Positions 21,581 to 31,335 of a stretch of 32,000 bases of DNA are shown piece after piece (the first letter of the stretch is position 1; every line of letters begins with the position of its first letter). The stretch lies in the NCBI RefSeq assembly GCF_008065095.1, contig NZ_CP042911.1:5700001-5732000 (forward strand), in the 5' to 3' direction. The stretch comes from Gemmata obscuriglobus. Lineage in GTDB: Bacteria; Planctomycetota; Planctomycetia; Gemmatales; Gemmataceae. The notes under the pieces are model-generated. The model had not been told where the DNA came from, ran no database searches, and worked only from the letters and a program-made list of their open reading frames with translations. A program made the translations under genes and the position numbers.

Positions 21581-23101
21581 CTATTCCCGCGCGACGTGGA
21601 TCGGGACCACCTTTCGAACGACCTTGTTCGGCTCGAACGGGAACCGCTCGGTCGGCTCCATACTGAAACGCCAGACGTAGCGAGACCCGTGCTTACTGCG
21701 TACGATCGTCGGAGCAGGGAGTTCCGTTTCCGAAACGAAAAGAACGAAGTGTTCAACCGCCGTCTTACCGCCACCGTTGATCCCCCCAATGACGAAGGAC
21801 TTTCCATTGGGTGGCAACAGCCTCTGCGCCTGTCCGGGTTTAAGGACATTCCCGCCCAGCACCTCCTGAACGCGCACTTCGCCGTCGGCCTGTACCATGA
21901 GCAGCGTGAAATACACCTTCTGCTCGCACCGCACCTCCAGCGTAAACGGCTCGTCGACCTTGACCTGCGTGACCGGCTTCGCGCCGACGATGAGATCGAC
22001 CTTGAGCTTGAGCGGCGATTCTCGGGGCACCACGTCACCCGCGTACCAAGCCGACAGAGGCGGGATCGGCATGCGCCCCGGGCCCGCACTCGGAACAGAA
22101 ACCGGCTTCAACCCGGCAAACGGCCGTGCCACTGGCCCGTCCGGTGCCATGTCAGTGGGTTCTAAGCGCTGCAACGCGCTCAACGCAAACAGATCTGCGG
22201 CGAGCGGCGAGCGCGGCCCCCACCCGAACACGGCTTTCGGCGCCCAAGCCGGCGCCAGCAGCGACGACGAGAGCCAGTCGCCCCGCAGGTACGGGACCGG
22301 GACCACCGCCCCCCGAAGGCCTGGGAGTTCCTTTAACCGCGCCGCCGGCAGTTCGTCCGGCCGAAGCGCGGTGGCGTGTGGGTTCTCTCGTTCGATCAAC
22401 ACGTCGAGATGGGTCGGGGCGGCGTTCCGGGTCGGCCTGCGCCCTTCCATCAACTCGAACACGTAACCGCCCCGCCATTGCTGTTCGACGAGATCGAACC
22501 GGAACACGGTGCCCGCCTCGTCAACCGGTTCGAGCGCGGCGCCGGTTCGTGCAGACGAACTGAGCGCCAGCGCGATACGGAGATCGCGCTCCGCCGCGCC
22601 GAGGTCCGGGTGGGGCTCTCCGTCCCGCACGAGGTGCGCGAACGAGACGTACTGCTTCGTCTTCGACAGGTCGGGGTTGTTTTTGAACTGGTCGGCGATG
22701 GTGCCGAGGACGTAATCCTCGTCGAACGCGAGCGGGTACCCCGGCGCGCTCGCGTCGATCCATTTCTTGAGGACCGCAACCTCAGCCGGGGTGGGCGCCG
22801 CCCGGTTGCCGGGCGGCATCGAGCCGTCCGCGAGTAACTCGAGGAGGAGCGAGCGTTCCCCCGCAGCAGCGAGCGGGATCGGCTTCTTCTTCTCGCCGAC
22901 CACCTGCGCGTGGTCGAGCAGATTCGTGCGGCTCTTCCCGGGGGCTGCGCTGCCGGTGTGGCACTCGGCGCAATGCCGCTTGAGGATGTCCCGCGCTTTG
23001 ATCGCGAGATCGCCGCGCCCCCGGTGGTCAAGCGGTTCGGCCCCGCGCGCGCCCGCGGAAGCGAGAAGCACTAACGCGACGGCACCAGCAATCGAGCGCA
23101 T
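21581..23101 (-). CDS. Secreted haem-c (CxxCH, PSCyt1-like) protein with a C-terminal DUF4384-like domain
   Basis: Signal peptide MRSIAGAVALVLLASAGARGAEP. ILKRHCAECHTG (Cys codons at 22970-22972 and 22961-22963, His at 22958-22960) followed by GSMPPGN...LKKWIDASAP resembles the planctomycete cytochrome c domain. The C-terminal VKVDEPFTLEVRCEQKVYFTLLMVQADGEVRVQ...HFVLFVSETELP (about 21716-22015) resembles DUF4384. Confidence 0.75.
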   Translation of the reverse strand: MRSIAGAVALVLLASAGARGAEPLDHRGRGDLAIKARDILKRHCAECHTGSAAPGKSRTNLLDHAQVVGEKKKPIPLAAAGERSLLLELLADGSMPPGNRAAPTPAEVAVLKKWIDASAPGYPLAFDEDYVLGTIADQFKNNPDLSKTKQYVSFAHLVRDGEPHPDLGAAERDLRIALALSSSARTGAALEPVDEAGTVFRFDLVEQQWRGGYVFELMEGRRPTRNAAPTHLDVLIERENPHATALRPDELPAARLKELPGLRGAVVPVPYLRGDWLSSSLLAPAWAPKAVFGWGPRSPLAADLFALSALQRLEPTDMAPDGPVARPFAGLKPVSVPSAGPGRMPIPPLSAWYAGDVVPRESPLKLKVDLIVGAKPVTQVKVDEPFTLEVRCEQKVYFTLLMVQADGEVRVQEVLGGNVLKPGQAQRLLPPNGKSFVIGGINGGGKTAVEHFVLFVSETELPAPTIVRSKHGSRYVWRFSMEPTERFPFEPNKVVRKVVPIHVARE

Positions 23102-23119: not shown

Positions 23120-26100
23120 TCAGCGCTTGATGAGCGGGTCTTTCGGCAGGTCGCGCGGGAACGACGCGGGCGTTTGCGGCCCGCTCAGTCCCGCGCCCCG
23201 GAGCAGCGCGGGGAGTTCCGCGGAGACGTAATCGAACAGTTCGTCGGCCGACACGACCCCGTTGTTGTCGAAGTCCGCTTTGCGGTAGTCCCTGTCCTTG
23301 TCGAGCGCGTTGAGTACAGCCCGCGTGAACAGCCCGTGCTGGTACTTCGCGTGTTCGTAGGACCGCTGACCCTCGTCGCACGCGGCGATAATGAGCGGCC
23401 CCTGCCCGTTGGGCACGCACCGGCGGAGCATGTTTGTGGTCGCGAGTCGGCCCGAGTGGCAGGCGTCAAGAAGCACCACCTTCCGACAGTTAACCTTGGC
23501 CAGCGCCGCGAACAACTCGTCCGCCGCGACCGCCGTTTCTGTCGGTTTCGCGGGCGAGTAGTTCGGCGTGCACAACACGAACGCGCCCTTGTCGCCCGGC
23601 AACCCCGGTCCCACTGTGGGAACCGGCCCGTCGTTCGGCATAAGTACGTCACCGTGGCCCGCGAAGAACACCACCAGCGTGTCGTCCGGCTGAACCTGAT
23701 CGGCGACCGCGCGCAGGGCGTCGAGGAGTTTGCCCCGTTTGGGGTCCAGGTGCGTGTCGGCGCTGGCCGTTTCGTAAAGGAGGTTACCGCCGGCGCATTG
23801 CTTCAGCAGCTTGCCGAGTTCGGTCGCGTCGTTGCGGGCGTGAAGAAGGTCGCCGAAGTTCCGCGCGCCCGCGTTCATCTGGCGGGTGCCGGAGTAGTCG
23901 TTCACACCGACGAGCACCGCGAACAGTCGCGCCGCCGGCGAAGACCGGGGGTTGGGCACCCACTGCACCTCTTCGACCCGGCCGCCTGCCGAGTTGACCG
24001 CAACCACCGTCAAACGATTCGGGCCGGCACGGAACCGGTTCGCCGGAATCGGGTATCGCTCCTCGAATGGCTTCCGCGGGTCCAGTTGCCGCCCCGCACG
24101 GGGCCATTCTTCGATGAGGAAGTCGTTGAGCCACAGCTCGACGCGCTCGGGCAATAGGTCGGGGTTGGTGCCGCGCGCCCGGACGGTGATCGTGACGGGC
24201 AGCCCGGCGTTCGTGACCTCGTGGTGCCCCAGGCCCAATCGCACCGGCGCGGGCTCGGACTTGTTGAACAGGTCGCGGGTCGGGTGCTCATTGCGGGCGG
24301 TTAGGAGCGCCGCCGCCACACCGGCGTCCACCAGGGTCTCCATCACGTCGGGCCGATGGAACAGCCGTTCAAACTGCTGGAGTTGGTAGAACTCCGGGCG
24401 CCCGCCCGGGTCCGGGGCGTTGACGTGCCACCCTACGAGCCGGTCCCCGTTGACCGTTTTGGTGTGGTAGTACGACCCGTGCCACATCCATACGACCCAG
24501 TCGTTCATGCGGCCGGCGCTGTCGAACGCCGGAAACCACTTCCAGGTCGGGCGCTGCCGGACGGTGGTGAGCGTCTCGCGGCGCGGCGTCTTCTCTCCGG
24601 CCGCAATTCCGAAATACAGCTCGATTCTGGGTTTCGGGGCCTTGAGCGCCGCGAGGGCGTCTTGCGGGGTGCCGACCGCCTTCAGCTTCACCGTCCGGTC
24701 GAACACTGTGACCCGGTCCACGGCCAGGAGGTCGAGCACGTCACCCTTCCGCAGGCCGGCCTCCCACGCGGGCGAGCCGGTTTCGAGGGTCACAACCCGC
24801 ACCGCCCCGTTGTGCTCCTCGAACGTCGCGCCGAGGTTCGGCGCGTCCTTCCAATCTTCCAGGGACCACGCCGCGACCGTCTGGTCGGTCCCCCCGGTGA
24901 CGAACCAGGTCTGACTCCTCGCCGCCACGACCGATGTCACCTCGCCCGCGTGGCCGGTGTACACCTTCGTTCCGACGAACCCGCCACGGACCGCGCGCTC
25001 GGGAACCAGTTCGAACAGCGTGCAGCCGTAATAGTGCCCCACGATCACGCGGGTGGGCCGCTTCTCGGACGCGGGGAGGAACGTGTAGCAAGTCGGGGCC
25101 AGATCGCGGAACCGGTCGAGTTCGAGTCGGAACCTCTGCCTCTCGCCCATCTGGGTGCGTTCGACGAACCACTCGTACCGGTTATCCGAGTTCGGCACCA
25201 CTTCCCACCCGTCGGCACTCCGGACCGGTCCGACCCACTTTTGGCCCTCGTCGGAACTCTCCTTCAGGCGCGACAGATCGAACCGGCTCCACGGGCCGCT
25301 GCCCCGCTTATTGGGGTCGAGCGAGCGGGCGTCCCGCGCGGTTTGAATGCCGACCATCTTTCCGTTTTCGGACAGATTAACCGCCCACGGGCGCCGCCCG
25401 CCGCCGCGCACCACCTGCGGCTTCTCGTCGGGTTTGTCGAGTTTTCGCACCGTGATCTCATCGGCATCGCCACCTGCAATCGCGAGGCGCGCGTCTGTCG
25501 GGTGAAAAGCGAGCGCCTCGGCCCGCCCGGTGTGGGTGATGACGTCCGGTTCCGCACCGGGCTTCGCGAGCGGGTCGGCGTAGATCCGAACCTCGTCGTT
25601 CCCCTCGGCGAAGAAGCGCGGCCCCTCCCCCTCCGGCGCGAGGGCGCGACCGACCCCCACCGCCAGCGCGCGCGTCTTCGGGTGCCAGGCGAGGCTGCGC
25701 GGGAACCGGTCCTTGCCGAGTTCGAGGCGCACCGTCTGTTTGCCGTCGGCGCGGCACAGCAGCACCTTGGAGTCCGCACTGGCGACCGCGATCCACCGCC
25801 CGCCGTCGATCCGCTCGACGCGATACACCCGCGCGTCCACGGGTTCGGCGGCGTTCACGTTGAACAGTTCTTTCCCCGGCGGCGGCCGTTCCGGGGTATC
25901 GGCAGCGGTGTCGTCGAACGCGCAGGCATACACCTGACCGCTTTGAGCGACTGAAACCAGGGTGCCGTTCTCGGAGAACCAGATCAGCCGCGGCCGGTTG
26001 AACGGCTCCGACCCGACCGTTCGTTTCGGTAAGTCGTGCTTGCCGACGCGAACCGGCGGCGCCGCGGTGCGCCCGTCCTGGTCCGGCTCGGGAAGCGGCT

Positions 26101-26629
26101 TCGGGTTCCAGAGCCAGAGGCTGCCGTCCGCGGTGCCGAACCCGACCCGACCGTCCGCGTGAAACGCGACCGCCGTGACGATGTTAAAGTTCGCGTCCCC
26201 TTTGCGCACGAGCGGCCACGTGAGTGCGACCGTTTCGCCGGTCGCCCGGTCGAGCACCGCGACCGTGCTGGGTTTCATTCCGTACCCGCCCACCACGACG
26301 TTCTTGCCGTCGGAGGAAATGTCGAGGGCCTGGATGCCGCCGCGCTGCTCGCGCCACGCCCGCCAGCGCAAGACCTGCGCCTTCGCGCGCTCCGTTTCCA
26401 GGCCGCTGCTGGTGTACGGCCAGACCCGCACCACCTTGTCGTCACCCGCGGCGAACAGTAACCGCCCGTCGCCCGAGAACCGCAGAACGTCACAGGCGCC
26501 GAACCGCCCGCCCGCCTCGACCACGATCTCGGGCTCTTCGCGGGACCGGCGGTCGAACTGCTGCCCGCCCGCATCGGGCGCCGTCAGGACGAGAGCGAAA
26601 CCGACCAGTGTGGTAAGAAGGTTGGCCAT
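23120..26629 (-). CDS. Giant multidomain caspase-family (peptidase C14) protein: N-terminal hydrophobic anchor or signal, WD40/beta-propeller region, PDZ, caspase His-Cys domain, C-terminal EF-hand loop
   Basis: The start is probably MANLLTTLVGFALVLTA (26629); the ORF is open to 26710. WD40-like strands: RFSGDGRLLFAAGDDKVVRVWPY, VTGGTDQTVAAWSLEDW. PDZ: GAVRVVTLETGSPAWEAGLRKGDVL (about 24566-24832). Caspase: RLFAVLVGVNDY, VVFFAGHGD (His codon 23654-23656), VVLLDACHSG (Cys codon 23459-23461). Canonical EF-hand loop DFDNNGVVSADE (23240-23275). Confidence 0.85.
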   Translation of the reverse strand: MANLLTTLVGFALVLTAPDAGGQQFDRRSREEPEIVVEAGGRFGACDVLRFSGDGRLLFAAGDDKVVRVWPYTSSGLETERAKAQVLRWRAWREQRGGIQALDISSDGKNVVVGGYGMKPSTVAVLDRATGETVALTWPLVRKGDANFNIVTAVAFHADGRVGFGTADGSLWLWNPKPLPEPDQDGRTAAPPVRVGKHDLPKRTVGSEPFNRPRLIWFSENGTLVSVAQSGQVYACAFDDTAADTPERPPPGKELFNVNAAEPVDARVYRVERIDGGRWIAVASADSKVLLCRADGKQTVRLELGKDRFPRSLAWHPKTRALAVGVGRALAPEGEGPRFFAEGNDEVRIYADPLAKPGAEPDVITHTGRAEALAFHPTDARLAIAGGDADEITVRKLDKPDEKPQVVRGGGRRPWAVNLSENGKMVGIQTARDARSLDPNKRGSGPWSRFDLSRLKESSDEGQKWVGPVRSADGWEVVPNSDNRYEWFVERTQMGERQRFRLELDRFRDLAPTCYTFLPASEKRPTRVIVGHYYGCTLFELVPERAVRGGFVGTKVYTGHAGEVTSVVAARSQTWFVTGGTDQTVAAWSLEDWKDAPNLGATFEEHNGAVRVVTLETGSPAWEAGLRKGDVLDLLAVDRVTVFDRTVKLKAVGTPQDALAALKAPKPRIELYFGIAAGEKTPRRETLTTVRQRPTWKWFPAFDSAGRMNDWVVWMWHGSYYHTKTVNGDRLVGWHVNAPDPGGRPEFYQLQQFERLFHRPDVMETLVDAGVAAALLTARNEHPTRDLFNKSEPAPVRLGLGHHEVTNAGLPVTITVRARGTNPDLLPERVELWLNDFLIEEWPRAGRQLDPRKPFEERYPIPANRFRAGPNRLTVVAVNSAGGRVEEVQWVPNPRSSPAARLFAVLVGVNDYSGTRQMNAGARNFGDLLHARNDATELGKLLKQCAGGNLLYETASADTHLDPKRGKLLDALRAVADQVQPDDTLVVFFAGHGDVLMPNDGPVPTVGPGLPGDKGAFVLCTPNYSPAKPTETAVAADELFAALAKVNCRKVVLLDACHSGRLATTNMLRRCVPNGQGPLIIAACDEGQRSYEHAKYQHGLFTRAVLNALDKDRDYRKADFDNNGVVSADELFDYVSAELPALLRGAGLSGPQTPASFPRDLPKDPLIKR

Positions 26630-26730
26630 AGAGCCCCCGGAGCCACAGGCGGGACCAGGATACCATACACGGACGGGCGGGGTGAGATTCGTGTACACTG
26701 GCGGAACCATTCCTGACCGGGACCGGGCCG
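26630..26730. promoter_or_regulatory. Divergent intergenic region between the caspase gene and the kinase gene; contains short palindromes
   Basis: 101 bp if the caspase gene starts at 26629. TACACG (26666-26671) and CGTGTA (26690-26695) are inverted repeats. GTGTACAC (26691-26698) is an 8-bp perfect palindrome. I did not recognise a promoter consensus. Confidence 0.3.
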
Positions 26731-28593
26731 ATGTCCGACACGCTACCCAACGACGACCGGAACCGACTCACGGCCCGCGCCGACCGGTTCCAGCACGCGC
26801 TTGTAAACGGCGGTGTGACCGACTTCGCGGAATTTCTGGACGGATTGGTCGGCGGGGAGCGGTTGAAGTTGCTGACCGAACTGGTCGCGCGCGAGCTACG
26901 GCACCGCTGGGCCGGCGGAGAACGGCCGCGGATCGAGGAGTACCTCGCCCGGTTTCCCGAACTCGCGCCCGGCGGGGCGGCGCCGCCTGCGCTGATCATT
27001 GAAGAGTACCGCTGTCGAATTCAGGCCGGCGAGCCCCCCGACCCGCTCCAGTTCCGTGACCGGTTCCCGGACCAGTTCGCCGCCGTCCAGGCGGACTTCG
27101 ACGCGGTGACGGCGTCGGGCACGGTGAAAGCGGCGTCGGCGCCGCACCTGCCCCCGACCGCCCGCGGGATGGTGGAGGTGGCGCAGCAGTACGAACTGAT
27201 CCGCGAGCTGGGCCGCGGGATGTTCGGCGAGGTGTGGCTCGCGCGGAAGAAGCCGAGCGGCATCGAGCGCGCGATCAAGATCCTCCACCAGGCCGCGGAC
27301 CGCGAGGCCGGGCAGCGCGAGCTGGTGTCGCTCGAACTGATCAAGAACCTGCGGCACCCGTACATCCTGGCGACCGAAGACTTCTGGGTGACGGAGAACC
27401 GGCTCCACATCGTCATGGAGCTGGCCGAGGGCACGCTCCGCGGGCGGCTGAAGCAGTGCCTCACCGAGGGCCACCCCGGGGTGCCCGCTGGGGAACTGTT
27501 CCGGTACATCGCTGAGGCCGCCGAGGGGCTGGACTTCCTGCACGAGCAACACATCGTTCACCGCGACGTCAAGCCGGACAACATCCTCATTCTGCACGGC
27601 CACGCGAAGGTCGCGGACTTCGGTTTAGCCCGCGCGCAGGCGCAAGGGGTCGAGTCCATGAGCCTCGCGGGGACGCCCGCGTACATGGCCCCGGAAATCT
27701 GGGGCGGCGAGGGCGGCGCGGCCAGCGACCTTTACAGCCTCGCCTTTGCCTACGTCGAACTGCGACAGGGGCACTCGCCGCTCAAGCCGTGTCCGTTCGG
27801 CGAGTTGATGCTCGCGCACTACGAGGGCCGGTACGAGTTCAGCGAGGTTGTGACCGAACCCGAGCGCGCGGTGTTGCGTCAAGCGCTGGCGGCAAAACCG
27901 CACGAGCGCTACCGGTGCTGCACGGACTTCGTCGCGGCGCTGTCGGTCGCACTCGGAATACCGTTCGCCGCTACGGGGCGGCACTCCGCCACCACACCGC
28001 CGCTCCCGCCCCCGCCGCTCAACGGCGGTTCGGTAGCCGCGTTCGCCAGCGGCAGCCGGCCCGCCATCGACACGGCCACAGCGGGCGGTACGGTCGTCAT
28101 CGATTCGCTGCCAAAGAAGCCGCGCCCCAAGGCCGTTCCCGATCCCGTGGAACCGGAGCCTCCGGAGCCCGAACTCTTCGGAGAGCCGGAACCGGATGCC
28201 GCTACCCGCCGGTTCGGACCGCTGGTCGTGGCCGCCACTCTGGCGCTGGTCACGCTGGTAGCGGTCGGTGCCTGGGCACTGTTCAACCGCCCCGGTGGTG
28301 TGCCAACATCCGTCACAGAAGCCCCACCGCCCCCCCCCCACACACACCCAAGGATGACACCCTCGCACCGCCCCCCCGGCGGGTCGATCCGCGCCCGCCA
28401 GAACCGCCAGGTCCGAAATGGGTGTTCCCGGTGGGCACAACGCCAGAGGCCGGAGCGAAAGAAATTGCGCTCGTCGGGAAAATGGTCCCGGAGTGGGTCA
28501 CCGCCCAGCACAACGGCAAAGCGGTACGGTTCCGACTCATCAGCGGACCGCCAGGGCCGTCGGTCGCGTTTTACATCTCCGAAACGAAGGTGA
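26731..28593 (+). CDS. Membrane Ser/Thr protein kinase (Hanks type); the reading frame after the poly-C tract at 28330 is probably not the native one
   Basis: GRGMFGEVWLA (G-loop), AIKIL (Lys codon 27277-27279), HRDVKPDNIL (27559-27582), DFG (27616-27624), GTPAYMAPE, a Pro-rich linker, and the TM helix LVVAATLALVTLVAVGAWALF (28219-28284). Residues after APPPPP are Arg/Ser-rich and look like nonsense. Confidence 0.85.
   Translation: MSDTLPNDDRNRLTARADRFQHALVNGGVTDFAEFLDGLVGGERLKLLTELVARELRHRWAGGERPRIEEYLARFPELAPGGAAPPALIIEEYRCRIQAGEPPDPLQFRDRFPDQFAAVQADFDAVTASGTVKAASAPHLPPTARGMVEVAQQYELIRELGRGMFGEVWLARKKPSGIERAIKILHQAADREAGQRELVSLELIKNLRHPYILATEDFWVTENRLHIVMELAEGTLRGRLKQCLTEGHPGVPAGELFRYIAEAAEGLDFLHEQHIVHRDVKPDNILILHGHAKVADFGLARAQAQGVESMSLAGTPAYMAPEIWGGEGGAASDLYSLAFAYVELRQGHSPLKPCPFGELMLAHYEGRYEFSEVVTEPERAVLRQALAAKPHERYRCCTDFVAALSVALGIPFAATGRHSATTPPLPPPPLNGGSVAAFASGSRPAIDTATAGGTVVIDSLPKKPRPKAVPDPVEPEPPEPELFGEPEPDAATRRFGPLVVAATLALVTLVAVGAWALFNRPGGVPTSVTEAPPPPPHTHPRMTPSHRPPGGSIRARQNRQVRNGCSRWAQRQRPERKKLRSSGKWSRSGSPPSTTAKRYGSDSSADRQGRRSRFTSPKRR
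28330..28339 (+). repeat. C10 homopolymer at the frame break of the kinase gene; a second C7 run lies at 28371-28377
   Basis: Counted directly: position 28330 plus 28331-28339 are all C. The upstream sensible frame has codon starts at 1 mod 3 and the downstream sensible frame at 0 mod 3. Confidence 0.9.
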
Positions 28594-29096
28594 CGAACGC
28601 CGAGTACCGGGCCGGTGGCGACGATGCTCCAGTCGTGAACGTCACCGCGACCGACGCGCAGGCGTTCGCGCGGTCCGCCTACAACGGCTCGCTACCGACC
28701 GCCGAGGAGTGGGACCACGCGGCCGGCTTCCACGACCAGCAGGGGCAGGAAGGACCGAGCCGACGGTCGGGGACCCCGTGGGTCAACCGGGCGGCGGCCG
28801 GTCCCGTCCGACGCCCGGGCGGAGCGGACATCAGCTACTTCGAGTTGCTAGATATGTCGGGTAACGGACGTGAATGGACGCGCACAATTCTCAACGACGG
28901 AAGCGGAAACGACGTGCGCGACGTGGCATCCCCAACGGGCACCGAAAAGGTGGTACTACGCGGCCGCAACTTCGCACTGGATCGGCCGCTCACGTTCAAA
29001 ATGCTGGAAGCGGAACGAAACATCCAGCCCCTGACAGCGCCCGCGAACCGTCCGAGCCCGTTCACGGGCTTCCGTGTGGTACTCAAAGTGCCCTGA
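28422..29096 (+). CDS. FGE-sulfatase (SUMF1/EgtB/PvdO-like) domain segment, most likely the displaced extracytoplasmic C-terminus of the kinase gene
   Basis: The frame is open from 27789, but it only makes sense after 28329: PPPHTPKDDTLAPPPRRVDPRPPEPPGPKWVFPVG. FGE-type motifs: FYISETKVTNAEY, VNVTATDAQAFA, LPTAEEWDHAAG, DMSGNGREWTRT, VLRGRNF, TGFRVVL. Possible independent starts are GTG 28422/28431 and ATG 28482. Confidence 0.7.
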   Translation: MFPVGTTPEAGAKEIALVGKMVPEWVTAQHNGKAVRFRLISGPPGPSVAFYISETKVTNAEYRAGGDDAPVVNVTATDAQAFARSAYNGSLPTAEEWDHAAGFHDQQGQEGPSRRSGTPWVNRAAAGPVRRPGGADISYFELLDMSGNGREWTRTILNDGSGNDVRDVASPTGTEKVVLRGRNFALDRPLTFKMLEAERNIQPLTAPANRPSPFTGFRVVLKVP

Positions 29097-29105
29097 CCGC
29101 GGCTC

Positions 29106-30110
29106 TCACGCCCGGTTCTTGCGCTCACGCCACCGGTTCAGGCTCACGTTCGCGACCAGCAGCGCCCCGATGAGCACATACTGCATTTCGACCGGAACGT
29201 TGAACAGGCTCACGCCGTTCTTGATAAGGATGAGGATCGCGACCCCGAGCATCGCCCCGACCACCCCGCCCTTCCCGCCCGACAGGCTCGCCCCGCCGAT
29301 CACAACCGCGGTAATCACGTCGAGTTCGAGTTGCTCGCCGAGCGTCGGGTTGCCGCTGTTGCTGTGGGCGAACATGATCACCCCGGCCCAGCCGGTGAGC
29401 AGCCCTGCGAGGGTGTATACGAGCACCTTGGTACGGGTGACGTTCACCCCGCACAGCCGTGCCGTCGCCTCGTTCGACCCGACGGCGTACAGGTGGCGCC
29501 CGAATACCGTGAGCCGCAACAGCACGACCGTCAGGAGTGCGAGTGCAACAAGTGACCACAGCCCCGGGTTGGTGAGCGACACACGGCCGACGGTGTTCAC
29601 CCATTCGGGAGTGCCGTTGAGCGGGAACGGGAGGGTAGCGCGTCCGGCGAGCCACACGGCGGCCCCACGTGCGATTCCGAGCATCCCCAGCGTGGCGACG
29701 AACGGCGGTAGCTGGAGTTTCGTCACGAGCAACCCGTTTACGAAACCCACGAGCCCGCCGGCGAGCACCCCGCACACGCACGCCACAACCGAACTCGTGG
29801 GTGACGGGTCGGACGCGGTGTACATCGCAGTGTAGACGCGCATCGTAACAACCGTCACAAGGGCGACGGTAGCACCGACGGACAGGTCGATGCCGCCGCT
29901 GATGAGTACGAGCAGCATCCCCAGCGCGACAACCGCCGGTATCGTCCCCTCATGCAGCAGCACGCGCAGGTTCCCGAGGCTCAGGAACGTGCCCAGGTCG
30001 CCCTTGATGCCGATGAGCGCGGTGAACAGCGCCAGCACAGCGGCGAAGCCGATCCACGGTCCCGCCGGGAGCTTGAACGCGGTGGAAGCAGGCGCAGGAG
30101 AGGTTGCCAT
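29106..30110 (-). CDS. Sugar ABC transporter permease (CUT2, RbsC/AraH-like)
   Basis: I trimmed it to MATSPAPAST. Motifs GGIDLSVGATVAL, FVATLGMLGIARG, YAVGSNEATARLCGVNV and VITAVVIGGASLSGGKGG are typical of the BPD_transp_2 family. The 32 extra N-terminal codons of the listed ORF lie inside the IS element. Confidence 0.85.
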   Translation of the reverse strand: MATSPAPASTAFKLPAGPWIGFAAVLALFTALIGIKGDLGTFLSLGNLRVLLHEGTIPAVVALGMLLVLISGGIDLSVGATVALVTVVTMRVYTAMYTASDPSPTSSVVACVCGVLAGGLVGFVNGLLVTKLQLPPFVATLGMLGIARGAAVWLAGRATLPFPLNGTPEWVNTVGRVSLTNPGLWSLVALALLTVVLLRLTVFGRHLYAVGSNEATARLCGVNVTRTKVLVYTLAGLLTGWAGVIMFAHSNSGNPTLGEQLELDVITAVVIGGASLSGGKGGVVGAMLGVAILILIKNGVSLFNVPVEMQYVLIGALLVANVSLNRWRERKNRA

Positions 30111-30118
30111 CGGTACTT

Positions 30119-30135
30119 CAGTAGTTTCAAGTTGG
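30119..30135. repeat. IS terminal inverted repeat (permease-proximal end)
   Basis: CAGTAGTTTCAAGTTGG. Similarity extends a few more bases if a 1-nt indel is allowed. Confidence 0.85.
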
Positions 30136-31335
30136 CGGCTTGGTTTTGTTGGCCGATCGTGCAGTAGTAATGGACTTATTTTCGCCATCTGTAGGTGCCA
30201 GCCCATCGGCCAACAGTATCAGGCATACCGCCGCCAGTGTCCACCCGAGGCCGCGGGCTGAGCGGGACCACAACCAGGCGTTACGCAGGATCAGCCCGAC
30301 GGCGACCCACAGGAGTCGCACGACCCCATCGGTGGTCGAGGTCCGGGGCCGAACCTGCCCCAACTGGCGGTAGCTGCTCTCGATCCCGAATCGGGTCCGG
30401 TACAGGTCCCGAATCGCCACCGGGCTCCCGCTCACCCGCCACGCCGCGTACAGTAACTTCTTGCTCCGCCGGCCCCCGGTCCGCCGGTACCGGTAGCTCT
30501 TGTGAGCGATCACCACGTGCACCCGCACCGAGGTGCCCCGATCCGCGTGGGTGTACGCATATCGACCCGCGCCCCGCCGCCGCACGGCCCGCAACCCGAC
30601 CCCCTTCACCCCGGGCCGGGGCTTGCGGCCCCGGACCACGGCCGGGATCACGAACGGCACACCCCGCGCCTGGAGCAACCGCATCACCGCGATCGAGAAG
30701 AACGCCTTGTCCAGCAGCGCGACCCGGACCGTAACCCGTGCCGCCGTCACCTGATCCAACAGCCGGGTGAGCACCGCGGTCATCGGCTCCTTCTCGCCCA
30801 CGGCCGTCAACCCGAGCGTGTACCGGTCCGGTCCCCCGACGAGGCACGCGGTGGCGTACGTGTGGAACGTGTGGGTGCCGCCGGCCCCCTTGGACCGGGT
30901 GGTGTCCCGGTTCGGCGTCCCGAAGTACCCGATCCGGTGGTAGTCGATCGCGACCCGAGCCGCCCGCTTCCGCTTGCCGAGCGGGGCGTGGAGGGCCGGC
31001 CGCAACCGCCGCTCGAGGGTGCGGCGCCGCTTGGGCAGCGTGAGGTACAAGCAATCCCAGATGGCCTGCCCGGACGGGGCGTCGGCGATCGCGGCACAGG
31101 CCGCGGCCACCGAGCGGGCGAACGCCGCGGCGAACAGCACCACCCGCCACACCACCTCGGGTGTACAGGTGCGGCGACGCTTGGGCAGTTGGACCGCACG
31201 GCCGAGCCAGTCGGTCAGGACCGGACGGAGGTGCCGGGTGGCGTGGGCCGGGGTGGCTCGGATAGACTGACGTTTGGGTCGCATGGGGGCTCCGACAGTG
31301 GAGGCGTGGTAACCACCATTGACCGGTAAACCCAT
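30127..31335 (-). CDS. DDE transposase (IS4-superfamily-like)
   Basis: 402 aa, or 385 aa from the MRPKRQS start at 31284 (GGAG upstream). Candidate DDE residues are in VAIDYH, ALLDKAF and YRTRFGIESSYRQL (Y-x2-R-x3-E signature). The stop falls inside the terminal IR. The IS family is not assignable by eye. Confidence 0.8.
   Translation of the reverse strand: MGLPVNGGYHASTVGAPMRPKRQSIRATPAHATRHLRPVLTDWLGRAVQLPKRRRTCTPEVVWRVVLFAAAFARSVAAACAAIADAPSGQAIWDCLYLTLPKRRRTLERRLRPALHAPLGKRKRAARVAIDYHRIGYFGTPNRDTTRSKGAGGTHTFHTYATACLVGGPDRYTLGLTAVGEKEPMTAVLTRLLDQVTAARVTVRVALLDKAFFSIAVMRLLQARGVPFVIPAVVRGRKPRPGVKGVGLRAVRRRGAGRYAYTHADRGTSVRVHVVIAHKSYRYRRTGGRRSKKLLYAAWRVSGSPVAIRDLYRTRFGIESSYRQLGQVRPRTSTTDGVVRLLWVAVGLILRNAWLWSRSARGLGWTLAAVCLILLADGLAPTDGENKSITTARSANKTKPPT

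What the first reader, a model, noticed from the sequence alone, without database searches (positions are those of the whole stretch)
23120..26629. Unusual single-chain architecture: hydrophobic N-terminus, beta-propeller, PDZ, caspase dyad and canonical EF-hand loop
Directly readable in the translation:
- About 560 aa of WD40-like blades.
- A PDZ motif (GSPAWEAGLRKGDVL).
- A conserved-looking W/Y-rich module (WKWFPAFDSAGRMNDWVVWMWHGSYYHTKTVNGDRLVGWHVNA...FYQLQQFERLFHRPDV).
- A C14 domain with an intact His (FFAGHGD) and Cys (DACHSG).
- A textbook 12-residue EF-hand loop, DFDNNGVVSADE (D1, D3, N5, G6, V8, E12), 60 aa after the catalytic Cys.

Eukaryotic metacaspases are Ca2+-dependent, so an appended EF-hand loop suggests Ca2+ gating through a different structural route.

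PDZ and EF-hand/dockerin-like modules are typical of extracytoplasmic proteins. However, the N-terminal hydrophobic segment (MANLLTTLVGFALVLTA) has no basic n-region and is followed by RRSR. Topology is therefore ambiguous: it could be a secreted protein or an N-terminal anchor with the bulk in the cytoplasm.
Basis: partly seen in the sequence, partly recalled or inferred. Interest (0 to 1): 0.7.

Follow-up and report, generated by a model that had tools for sequence, protein, structure and literature searches.

The report
Exported WD40–PDZ caspase-like protease of Gemmata

Summary
ORF 23120–26629 (−) encodes a 1,169-aa protein identical to the NCBI "Caspase domain protein" of Gemmata obscuriglobus. 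From N to C it has:
- a signal peptide;
- about 560 aa of WD40 propeller;
- a PDZ domain;
- a W/Y-rich element that follows WD40 blades in about 2,000 protein clusters;
- an FN3/Ig-like β-sandwich;
- a caspase-fold (C14) domain with invariant His992/Cys1057 and both acidic S1-pocket aspartates, which predicts Arg/Lys specificity.

The EF-hand-type loop (1119–1131) matches PROSITE PS00018 and is conserved in the family.

- The architecture is shared by at least 120 clusters and 31 species representatives, all those classified to order being Gemmatales.
- The loop is not appended. It lies inside the caspase fold between two helices, and distant bacterial caspase domains of other architectures carry it, or a degenerate relic, at the same position.
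- The topology question resolves to a cleavable Sec signal peptide: a hydrophobic core followed by AxA↓QQxDRRSRDEPE across the family.
- The acidic cluster at the position of the metacaspase p20 Ca2+ site is absent.

Ca2+ binding by the loop is likely. Its role, whether stabilising or licensing activity after export, is inferred and untested. Substrates are unknown. Interest is modest.

The parts
23120..26629 (-). Complete CDS, 1,169 aa plus stop: exported WD40–PDZ–β-sandwich–caspase (C14) protein
   Evidence: ORF. 100% identical to P0001, the NCBI 'Caspase domain protein [Gemmata obscuriglobus]', 1,169 aa. Start at 26629 is supported by the N-termini of more than 100 homologs and by loss of the upstream ATG 26710 in G. 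algarum, where the ATG 26629 context is identical.
26564..26629 (-). Predicted cleavable Sec signal peptide, aa 1–22 (MANLLTTLVGFALVLTAPDAGG↓QQ)
   Evidence: Of 103 homologs carrying the DRRxR landmark, all 103 have a hydrophobic core, 85 have a basic n-region residue, and 73 fit the −3/−1 rule at a fixed offset. The alignment shows AxA↓QQ. Heuristic only; no dedicated predictor was available.
26525..26563 (-). Conserved N-terminus of the mature protein, QQxDRRSRDEPE (aa 23–35); R27, R28 and P33 are invariant
   Evidence: Function unknown: possibly the first propeller strand, or an Arg-Arg autoprocessing or pseudosubstrate site (speculation).
24836..26524 (-). WD40 β-propeller region, about aa 36–598; blade count not determined
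   Evidence: Pfam WD40 and several propeller families. The family profile matches WD40 structures across positions 31–598; best is 2YMU at 7e-46.
24569..24835 (-). PDZ domain, about aa 599–687; the conserved L599-G600-A601 may be the carboxylate-binding loop
   Evidence: Pfam PDZ_6 at 22.2 bits, below cutoff. Model pLDDT is 71–87 over this stretch. Foldseek matches the PDZ domains of CtpA, CtpB, DegP and DegQ at probability 1.0. G600 is invariant; L599 and A601 are at least 90% conserved.
24335..24553 (-). W/Y-rich element, aa 693–765: a propeller-associated terminal module with no Pfam model
   Evidence: W696, W714, W716, G728, D729, G733, W734 and N737 are invariant. The profile hits 2,090 cluster representatives. 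In other proteins it always abuts or overlaps the last WD40 blades. It is β-stranded, but pLDDT is below 50 when modelled without the propeller.
23948..24247 (-). FN3/Ig-like β-sandwich, about aa 795–894
   Evidence: Model pLDDT is about 75–95 with seven strands. Foldseek matches the CbhA FN3-like module 3PE9, SoxYZ and Sas6 at probability 1.0.
23135..23932 (-). Caspase–hemoglobinase fold (peptidase C14, metacaspase-like) catalytic domain, about aa 900–1165
   Evidence: Pfam PF00656 at 52.8 bits, above the 21.4 cutoff. Model pTM 0.84. Foldseek: 3BIJ, MALT1, metacaspases, CED-3 and caspases at E 5e-11 to 1e-7. The A3 profile hits Yca1 at 2.8e-20.
23654..23656 (-). Catalytic His992 (FFAGHGD)
   Evidence: Invariant in 35 homologs and in 33 distant caspase domains.
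23459..23461 (-). Catalytic Cys1057 (DACHSG)
   Evidence: Invariant.
23828..23830 (-). Asp934, S1-pocket acid; aligns with the Asp of metacaspase 'C-[IV]-N-D'
   Evidence: Invariant. Alignment to Yca1 and AtMC4.
23465..23467 (-). Asp1055, S1-pocket acid two residues before the catalytic Cys, as in metacaspase D-S-C-H-S-G
   Evidence: Invariant. Alignment.
23240..23275 (-). EF-hand-type DxDxDG loop DFDNNGVVSADE, aa 1119–1130, inside the caspase fold between two helices
   Evidence: Single PS00018 match; 0.33% of shuffles gave any match. Family consensus D-x-[DN]-x-D-G-x-[LV]-x-x-x-E. The family profile hits calcineurin B and calmodulin EF-hands at E about 5e-4. Model: helix 1100–1109, loop with a β-bridge at 1125–1127, helix 1128–1145. 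The same position in distant caspase domains carries the same loop.

Best explanation
The gene encodes an exported, multidomain cysteine protease of the caspase-fold (C14, metacaspase-like) class, probably periplasmic, that is conserved in Gemmatales.

Proposed mechanism:
1. A short Sec signal peptide is removed at AGG↓QQ.
2. The mature protein presents a large WD40 propeller platform with a PDZ domain placed before the propeller's terminal W/Y element. These domains most likely recruit or select protein substrates. The PDZ probably binds C-terminal tails, as in the periplasmic proteases Ctp and DegP that it most resembles.
3. An FN3/Ig-like β-sandwich links this platform to the C-terminal catalytic domain.
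4. The catalytic domain uses His992/Cys1057 and an acidic S1 pocket (Asp934, Asp1055) to cut after Arg or Lys.
5. The EF-hand-type loop is an integral, ancestral element of this clade of bacterial caspase domains. It connects two late helices that I take to be the equivalents of caspase α4 and α5. It most likely binds one Ca2+ ion that staples these helices.

The enzyme would therefore be stabilised, and possibly made competent, only in the Ca2+-richer extracytoplasmic compartment.

Shown here: the domain identities, the fold, conservation of the catalytic and S1 residues, conservation and distribution of the loop, and the signal-peptide pattern.

Inferred: export, Ca2+ binding, Arg/Lys specificity, and the roles of the WD40 and PDZ domains.

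Unknown: the substrates.
For: - Domains: Pfam WD40 and C14 score above their cutoffs. Foldseek on a pTM 0.84 model gives caspase-fold proteins only. The PDZ and β-sandwich are supported by model and Foldseek.
- Catalysis: H992, C1057, D934 and D1055 are invariant in 35 family members and in 33 distant domains. They align with the metacaspase C-I-N-D and D-S-C-H-S-G motifs. Characterised metacaspases and orthocaspases cut after Arg/Lys because of an acidic pocket (PMC5756287).
- Export: the signal-peptide pattern holds in 103 homologs and ends AxA↓QQ. The h-region is only about 14 residues. The first 18 mature residues have a net charge of −2, read directly from the sequence.
- Loop: the PS00018 match is rare by chance. 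The Asp at loop position 1, Gly at position 6 and Glu at position 12 are each at least 90% conserved. The profile hits EF-hands in PDB. The loop sits helix–loop–helix inside the fold and recurs at the same position, 57–74 aa after the Cys, in unrelated architectures.
- Ca2+ site: the acidic cluster that follows GHG in metacaspases is absent.
- Export correlation: canonical loops occur in proteins with signal peptides or the WD40/W-Y layout; degenerate loops occur mostly in proteins with no N-terminal hydrophobic segment, including the PF19962/PF19960-associated ones.
- Lineage: 31 loci, each on a different contig; all those classified to order are Gemmatales.
Against: - No dedicated signal-peptide or topology predictor was run, and the query itself lacks the basic n-region residue.
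- The loop region has low model confidence: pLDDT is below 50 at aa 1117–1120, and the block mean is 53.
- The Pfam EF-hand score is below its cutoff.
- Loop position 5 is Asn in the query where the family has Asp.
- The only biochemically characterised orthocaspase, MaOC1, activates without Ca2+ (PMC5756287 and PMC7475262).
- No conserved operon partner or substrate clue exists outside the genus.
- The correlation between a canonical loop and export rests on few complete sequences.
Confidence: 0.65

Rival explanations
1. Ca2+-gated switch. Ca2+ binding to the EF-type loop allosterically turns the protease on, as Ca2+ does for eukaryotic metacaspases but through a different site.
For: The loop is canonical and conserved. 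The acidic cluster that follows GHG in metacaspases is missing, so another site would be needed if the enzyme depends on Ca2+. The helix leaving the loop (aa 1128–1145) leads into the last strands of the fold; in caspases the loop after that helix borders the substrate groove (established caspase topology, from my own knowledge).
Against: By fold topology the loop should lie on the side of the domain opposite the active site (inference). The same loop position is degenerate in many active-looking bacterial caspases with an intact dyad, so it is not generally required for catalysis. The characterised orthocaspase MaOC1 is Ca2+-independent. No assay has been done.
Confidence: 0.25
2. The DxDxNG loop is a structural turn or evolutionary relic that no longer binds metal in this protein.
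For: The Pfam EF-hand score is below its cutoff. There is a single loop, not a paired EF-hand domain. Position 5 is Asn in the query. Many relatives have degenerate versions. The model is uncertain at the start of the loop.
Against: Asn at position 5 is allowed by PROSITE PS00018, which the query matches in full. The Asp at position 1, Gly at position 6 and the bidentate Glu at position 12 are each at least 90% conserved in a family that has diverged to 39% identity, which implies selection on the liganding residues.
Confidence: 0.12
3. The N-terminal hydrophobic segment is an uncleaved anchor and the WD40–caspase body is cytoplasmic, so the protein acts like the cytoplasmic WD40/STAND-type caspase effectors of conflict or cell-death systems.
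For: The query has no basic n-region residue, and Arg-Arg-Ser-Arg follows the hydrophobic stretch. Many bacterial WD40–caspase proteins are cytoplasmic (PMC3501461). The best NCBIfam hit is the EACC1-associated caspase model.
Against: The h-region is only about 14 residues and ends in an AxA-type site in most homologs, and 85 of 103 have a basic n-region. The flank after the site is net acidic. There is no NTPase/NACHT domain and no defence-system hit beyond a generic caspase model. The NCBIfam score is below its cutoff (84.5 against 140). The PDZ most resembles those of periplasmic proteases. The gene sits on a different contig in each of 31 species representatives, all those classified to order being Gemmatales, unlike mobile defence genes.
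Confidence: 0.07
4. The protein is a non-catalytic scaffold: a pseudo-protease that uses the caspase fold only for binding.
For: Pseudo-orthocaspases are common in bacteria. Only 64% of Planctomycetes metacaspase homologs keep the dyad in one survey (PMC3501461).
Against: His, Cys and both S1 aspartates are invariant here. 114 of 115 full-length family members keep the Cys motif and 111 of 115 keep the His motif.
Confidence: 0.04

Closest known systems
Bacterial metacaspase-like proteases / orthocaspases (MEROPS C14B), for example MaOC1 of Microcystis aeruginosa
   Same: Caspase–hemoglobinase fold, His–Cys dyad, acidic S1 pocket predicting Arg/Lys specificity, and fusion to protein-interaction domains. 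WD40 is the commonest partner (PMC3501461).
   Different: This family carries a signal peptide and is probably extracytoplasmic. The caspase domain is C-terminal to the WD40–PDZ–β-sandwich part, not N-terminal. It has a canonical EF-hand-type loop. MaOC1 is reported to be Ca2+-independent, and orthocaspases are described as lacking p10 (PMC5756287). Here the strands and helices equivalent to the small subunit are present in the model.
Eukaryotic type I metacaspases (Yca1, TbMCA2, Candida glabrata MCA1)
   Same: Best sequence-profile matches in PDB (E 1e-20 to 1e-16 with profile A3). They share the C-x-N-D and D-x-C-H-S-G S1 motifs, and the large and small subunit regions are contiguous.
   Different: The acidic cluster after GHG in metacaspases is absent. 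A different site, the EF-type loop between two late helices, is present instead. There is no N-terminal pro-domain of the metacaspase type. The protein is exported and carries large accessory domains.
Periplasmic PDZ proteases (CtpA/CtpB, DegP/DegQ) and propeller-plus-PDZ proteases such as Tricorn
   Same: Extracytoplasmic location. The PDZ domain is structurally closest to theirs. The design logic is the same: propeller and/or PDZ domains select substrates for a tethered protease domain.
   Different: Those enzymes are serine proteases of unrelated folds, so this is an analogy of architecture and not homology of the catalytic domain.
Gingipains and other secreted clan CD proteases (C25)
   Same: Secreted caspase-fold cysteine proteases with Arg/Lys specificity, an adjacent Ig-like domain and structural Ca2+ sites (from my own knowledge; not tested here).
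   Different: A different family (C25, not C14). They have no WD40 or PDZ domains, use another secretion signal, and their Ca2+ sites are not EF-type loops at this position.
EF-hand proteins (calmodulin, calcineurin B)
   Same: The 13-residue loop fits PROSITE PS00018 and the flanking helices score against EF-hands.
   Different: A single loop embedded in an α/β protease fold, not a paired EF-hand domain. It scores below the Pfam cutoff.

Membership tests
Peptidase C14 (caspase/metacaspase; Pfam PF00656) | Sequence match above the curated cutoff | tested here: met
   52.8 bits against a cutoff of 21.4, aa 903–1114.
Peptidase C14 (caspase/metacaspase; Pfam PF00656) | Caspase–hemoglobinase α/β fold | tested here: met
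   Model pTM 0.84. All top Foldseek hits are clan CD: 3BIJ, MALT1, metacaspases, CED-3 and caspases at E 5e-11 to 1e-7.
Peptidase C14 (caspase/metacaspase; Pfam PF00656) | Catalytic His–Cys dyad | tested here: met
   H992 and C1057 are invariant.
Metacaspase-type specificity (Arg/Lys at P1) | Acidic S1 pocket: the Asp of C-x-N-D and the Asp two residues before the catalytic Cys | tested here: met
   D934 and D1055 are invariant and align with these motifs in Yca1 and AtMC4. Activity itself was not tested.
Eukaryote-type metacaspase | Acidic cluster following GHG in the p20 region (from my own knowledge, the high-affinity Ca2+ site) | tested here: not met
   The Yca1 segment EDLDGDEEDGMDD has no counterpart in the bacterial profile or in the query.
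Orthocaspase (as defined by Klemenčič and colleagues) | Prokaryotic C14 protein lacking a p10 domain | tested here: inconclusive
   Strand, helix, helix and strands follow the catalytic Cys in the model, so a small-subunit-like part exists. Its sequence match to the metacaspase p10 region is not significant (domain score −0.5).
EF-hand | Canonical 12-residue Ca2+ loop (PROSITE PS00018) | tested here: met
   A single exact match at 1119–1131. 87 of 115 family members match at the same place.
EF-hand | Pfam EF-hand domain score above cutoff, and paired EF-hand motifs | tested here: not met
   EF-hand_1 scores 13.2 bits against 25.4. Only one loop is present in the protein.
EF-hand | Ca2+ binding | not testable with these tools
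   Needs ITC, Tb3+ luminescence or a structure with the ion.
PDZ | Sequence match above cutoff | tested here: not met
   PDZ_6 scores 22.2 and PDZ_2 scores 20.3 against a cutoff of 27. Many homologs carry precomputed PF17820 hits.
PDZ | PDZ fold | tested here: met
   Model pLDDT is 71–87 over aa 600–687. Foldseek matches the CtpA, CtpB, DegP and DegQ PDZ domains at probability 1.0 and E about 1e-3. The L599-G600-A601 motif is conserved.
WD40 β-propeller | WD40 repeats above cutoff across the region | tested here: met
   58.8 bits against 27. Matches span profile positions 31–598. Blade number was not determined.
EACC1-associated caspase (NCBIfam NF047832) | Score above the curated cutoff | tested here: not met
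   84.5 bits against a cutoff of 140, and no EACC1-type domain was found. It is a related domain, not a member.
Sec-exported protein | N-terminal signal peptide: n-region, h-region of about 10–15 residues, and a −3/−1 small-residue site | tested here: met
   Heuristic analysis of 103 homologs and the alignment. The query lacks the basic residue. No SignalP-type predictor or experiment was available.
Anti-phage defence system (PADLOC) | Match to a defined system component, with partner genes | tested here: not met
   Only a generic 'caspase' model hit at 9e-10; the neighbouring genes gave none. There is no conserved neighbourhood.

The most novel reading that the evidence does not exclude
The EF-hand-type loop is a compartment sensor shared by a large clade of exported bacterial caspase homologs. 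The protease domain stays unfolded or inactive at cytoplasmic Ca2+ levels and becomes competent only after export. Cytoplasmic relatives would have replaced the ion with a Lys/Arg side chain at loop position 5. This would overturn the current statement that prokaryotic orthocaspases are Ca2+-independent. It would also define a second, structurally distinct Ca2+ control site in the C14 family. In Gemmata the enzyme might process proteins in the enlarged periplasm.
Probability: 0.2. Interest if true: 0.55.

Novelty: new member of a known kind. Interest (0 to 1): 0.3.

Why it matters
Bacterial caspase homologs are numerous, but only one, MaOC1, is described as biochemically characterised in the reviews I read. 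Those reviews call the prokaryotic enzymes p10-less and Ca2+-independent.

This family is conserved across Gemmatales, is probably exported, and has an intact active site. It also has a canonical Ca2+-type loop inside the fold. I found that loop in no solved C14 structure (by sequence search) and in no paper I could search. It would be a convenient system for asking two questions: do some bacterial caspase-fold proteases use Ca2+, and what do such proteases do outside the cytoplasm?

The practical gains are modest:
- a corrected domain map;
- a settled start codon and topology call;
- two unannotated sequence elements (the propeller-terminal W/Y module and the intradomain Ca-loop) that could be added to family databases.

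Tried and rejected
- A single-sequence PDB search of the C-terminal 306 aa gave only insignificant hits. Profiles were needed.
- I looked for a conserved operon partner to obtain a functional clue. The downstream gene (signal peptide, CxxCH, DUF4384-like) is conserved only in G. palustris. It is absent from three more distant loci, so gene context says nothing about the family.
- PADLOC gave no defence-system assignment.
- The promoter and terminator scan of the locus was uninformative: 0 promoter-like sites, and terminator-like sites at the level expected by chance.
- The W/Y module modelled without the propeller was low-confidence, so Foldseek could not classify it. I classified it by its distribution instead.
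- The search for related loci with the diverse caspase alignment A3 failed because it had no conserved stretch. With A2 it returned only the Gemmatales family, so a larger test of 'canonical loop versus export' on complete genes could not be run.
- Literature: the Dx[DN]xDG survey (PMC3123361) does not mention caspases. Searches for DxDxDG with metacaspase, and for Peptidase_C14 with EF-hand, found nothing on an intradomain loop. One survey notes an 'EF-hand motif' in 7 archaeal orthocaspases.
- A Tat signal was rejected because the Arg-Arg pair lies after the hydrophobic stretch, not before it.
- A lipoprotein signal was rejected because there is no lipobox Cys.

Full report
**1. The observation**

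The minus-strand ORF 23120..26710 is open. From ATG 26629 it gives 1,169 aa, 100% identical to an NCBI/UniRef entry named "Caspase domain protein [Gemmata obscuriglobus]" (P0001). The window is 61–69% G+C throughout.

**2. Start codon and N-terminus**

The N-termini of more than 100 homologs align with the Met at 26629. In the closest relative, G. algarum (L005), the upstream ATG 26710 is replaced by GTT. The ATG 26629 and the 20 bases before it are identical in both species. I therefore take 26629 as the start.

Of 103 full-length homologs that carry the DRRxR landmark:
- all 103 have a hydrophobic core (best 10-residue Kyte–Doolittle mean above 1.6);
- 85 have a basic residue before the core;
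- 73 satisfy the −3/−1 rule at a fixed offset, and most of the others fit when shifted by one or two residues.

The segments are 17–36 residues long, mostly about 20, and end A-x-A directly before the conserved QQxDRRSRDEPE. The query's h-region (LLTTLVGFALVLTA) is about 14 residues, which is too short for a stable anchor. The first 18 residues after the site carry a net charge of −2 (read from the sequence). The missing basic residue is shared mainly with the closest relatives (P0002, P0004–P0008).

This is the pattern of a cleavable Sec signal peptide. It is not Tat, because the Arg-Arg pair follows the hydrophobic core. It is not a lipoprotein signal, because there is no lipobox Cys. Export is an inference; no dedicated predictor or experiment was available.

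**3. Domain map**

- WD40. Pfam WD40 scores above its cutoff, and several propeller families match. A profile of 35 homologs (A1) matches WD40 structures from position 31 to 598. The best is the 577-residue WD-40 repeat protein 2YMU at 7e-46.
- PDZ. The query scores below the Pfam cutoff (22.2 against 27). In the AlphaFold2 model of aa 545–900 the stretch aa 600–687 is confident (pLDDT 71–87). Foldseek matches the PDZ domains of the periplasmic proteases CtpA, CtpB, DegP and DegQ at probability 1.0 and E about 1e-3. L599-G600-A601, a candidate carboxylate-binding loop, is conserved, with G600 invariant.
- W/Y-rich module (aa 693–765). It is strongly conserved, with W696, W714, W716, G728, D729, G733, W734 and N737 invariant. 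It has no Pfam model. A profile of it finds 2,090 cluster representatives at E ≤ 1e-3. In those I scanned, it abuts or overlaps the last WD40 blades. It occurs with or without a PDZ before it, and in kinase–WD40 proteins as well as caspase proteins. Modelled without the propeller it is β-stranded but low-confidence. I read it as a terminal element of the propeller, with the PDZ inserted before it. That reading is an inference.
- β-sandwich (aa 795–894). A confident seven-strand sandwich (pLDDT about 75–95) that resembles FN3/Ig-like modules (3PE9, SoxYZ, Sas6).

**4. The catalytic domain**

- Pfam Peptidase_C14 scores 52.8 bits against a cutoff of 21.4.
- The model of aa 895–1169 has pTM 0.84. 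Foldseek returns only caspase-fold proteins: GSU0716 (3BIJ) at 5e-11, then MALT1, metacaspases, CED-3 and caspases.
- H992 and C1057 are invariant in the family and in 33 distant domains.
- A profile of the distant domains hits Yca1 at 2.8e-20, and also AtMC4, TbMCA2 and MALT1. In those alignments D934 matches the Asp of metacaspase C-I-N-D, and D1055 matches the Asp of D-S-C-H-S-G. Both are invariant. Together with the reviews' statement that an acidic pocket gives Arg/Lys specificity (PMC5756287), this predicts cleavage after basic residues.
- The acidic cluster that follows GHG in metacaspases (EDLDGDEEDGMDD in Yca1) has no counterpart here. From my own knowledge, that is the region of the high-affinity Ca2+ site.

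**5. The EF-hand-type loop**

- The query matches PROSITE PS00018 once, at 1119–1131. Only 666 of 200,000 shuffles of the protein contain any match.
- The family consensus is A-D-x-[DN]-x-D-G-x-[LV]-[ST]-x-x-E-L. 87 of 115 full-length members match PS00018 59–66 residues after the catalytic Cys.
- The family profile of this stretch hits calcineurin B and calmodulin EF-hands in PDB at E about 5e-4.
- In the model the loop lies between a helix at aa 1100–1109 and a helix at aa 1128–1145, with a short β-bridge at 1125–1127, and is followed by the last strands. It is therefore inside the fold.
- The NCBIfam caspase model NF047832 runs through it to residue 1140.
- The decisive point is its distribution. 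In 32 caspase domains of other architectures (26–33% identity), the same position, 57–74 residues after the Cys, carries a canonical loop in 10. Most of the others carry a recognisable degenerate version, such as ADRDEKGFVTVQD.

The loop is therefore an ancestral, integral element of this clade of bacterial C14 domains. It is not a module appended to this protein.

By the known caspase topology, the connection between helices α4 and α5 lies on the side away from the active site. This comes from my own knowledge, and I could not measure it in the model. That position favours a stabilising role over direct gating.

Among sequences with a complete N-terminus, canonical loops occur with signal peptides (P0152, P0159 and this family). 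Degenerate loops occur mostly in proteins with no N-terminal hydrophobic segment, including the PF19962/PF19960-associated ones. The sample is small, so this is only suggestive.

**6. Distribution and context**

- At least 120 clusters at 90% identity share the full architecture at 39–66% identity, with lengths mostly 1,130–1,230 aa.
- A scan of one genome per species found 31 loci, each on a different contig. The named ones are Gemmata, Frigoriglobus, Urbifossiella, Zavarzinella and Fimbriiglobus, plus unnamed Gemmataceae/Gemmatales; five are labelled only at higher rank.
- In the window the gene is followed after 18 bp by a gene for a protein with a signal peptide, a CAECH motif and a weak DUF4384 match. 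It is preceded divergently by a Ser/Thr kinase gene.
- This neighbourhood is kept in G. palustris but not in three more distant loci. No family-wide partner exists.
- There is no defence-system signature.

**7. Comparison with what is known**

WD40 is the commonest partner of bacterial caspase domains, and about 15% of such proteins have predicted N-terminal helices or signal peptides (PMC3501461). One survey noted an "EF-hand motif" in 7 archaeal orthocaspases (PMC6426788). Reviews state that orthocaspases lack p10 and activate without Ca2+, on the basis of MaOC1 alone (PMC5756287 and PMC7475262).

I found no paper that describes the loop as part of the C14 fold. I found no solved C14 structure that contains it, judging by sequence search.

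The protein is a member of the bacterial metacaspase-like proteases. It is not a member of the EACC1-associated subfamily (84.5 bits against 140). It is not a eukaryote-type metacaspase with respect to the acidic cluster after GHG. In architecture it resembles periplasmic PDZ proteases and propeller-plus-PDZ proteases by analogy only.

**8. Verdict**

The architecture is a conserved lineage family, not an oddity. The loop is intrinsic and widespread. The topology question resolves in favour of export.

The most likely function is an exported Arg/Lys-specific cysteine protease whose propeller and PDZ select substrates, and whose catalytic domain is stabilised by Ca2+. Substrates and Ca2+ dependence remain to be tested. 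Interest is modest.

Noticed in passing
window 26731–29093 (+), break near 28389–28416: The divergent Ser/Thr kinase gene appears frameshifted. The G. palustris ortholog is one 807-aa kinase–FGE-sulfatase protein. It aligns to the window in two frames: residues 1–548 at 26731–28389 and residues 583–807 at 28416–29093. A run of seven C lies at about 28372–28380. This could be a pseudogene, a sequencing error or slippage.
   Followed up: partly
window 21581–23101 (−); CAECH motif at 22958–22972: The gene 18 bp downstream encodes a 506-aa protein with a signal peptide, a heme-c-type CAECH motif (aa 44–48) and a weak DUF4384 match at aa 380–459. It is conserved downstream of the caspase gene in G. 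palustris (50% identity) but not in more distant relatives.
   Followed up: partly
window 26525–26563 (−), aa 23–35: An invariant motif, QQxD-R-R-S-R-D-E-P-E, lies directly after the predicted signal-peptidase site. The one characterised orthocaspase prefers Arg-Arg substrates and autoprocesses after Arg (PMC7475262). This could be an autoprocessing or pseudosubstrate site, or simply the first propeller strand.
   Followed up: no
window 24335–24553 (−), aa 693–765; also P0187–P0329: The W/Y-rich element has no Pfam model, yet it matches 2,090 cluster representatives and always sits next to WD40 blades, in caspase, kinase and C13-like proteins. It is a candidate for a new family entry.
   Followed up: partly
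P0148–P0155, P0171–P0177 (distant caspase domains): In caspase proteins with no N-terminal hydrophobic segment, several carrying PF19962 or PF19960, the loop position is degenerate, often with Lys or Arg at loop position 5 (for example ADRDEKGFVTVQD). A side-chain amine may replace the Ca2+ ion.
   Followed up: no
PDB 6W8S (AtMC4), residues about 373–387: HMMER aligns the family's loop with the AtMC4 segment ILEETDGEISNREMV. The domain score of −0.4 is not significant. It might be a relic of the same loop in a eukaryotic metacaspase.
   Followed up: no
window 30127–31335 (−): An ORF with a modest DDE transposase match (PF01609, 32 bits) lies next to an ABC-transporter permease ORF at 29106–30206. 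In G. palustris the transporter genes sit directly beside the kinase gene, with no transposase between them.
   Followed up: no
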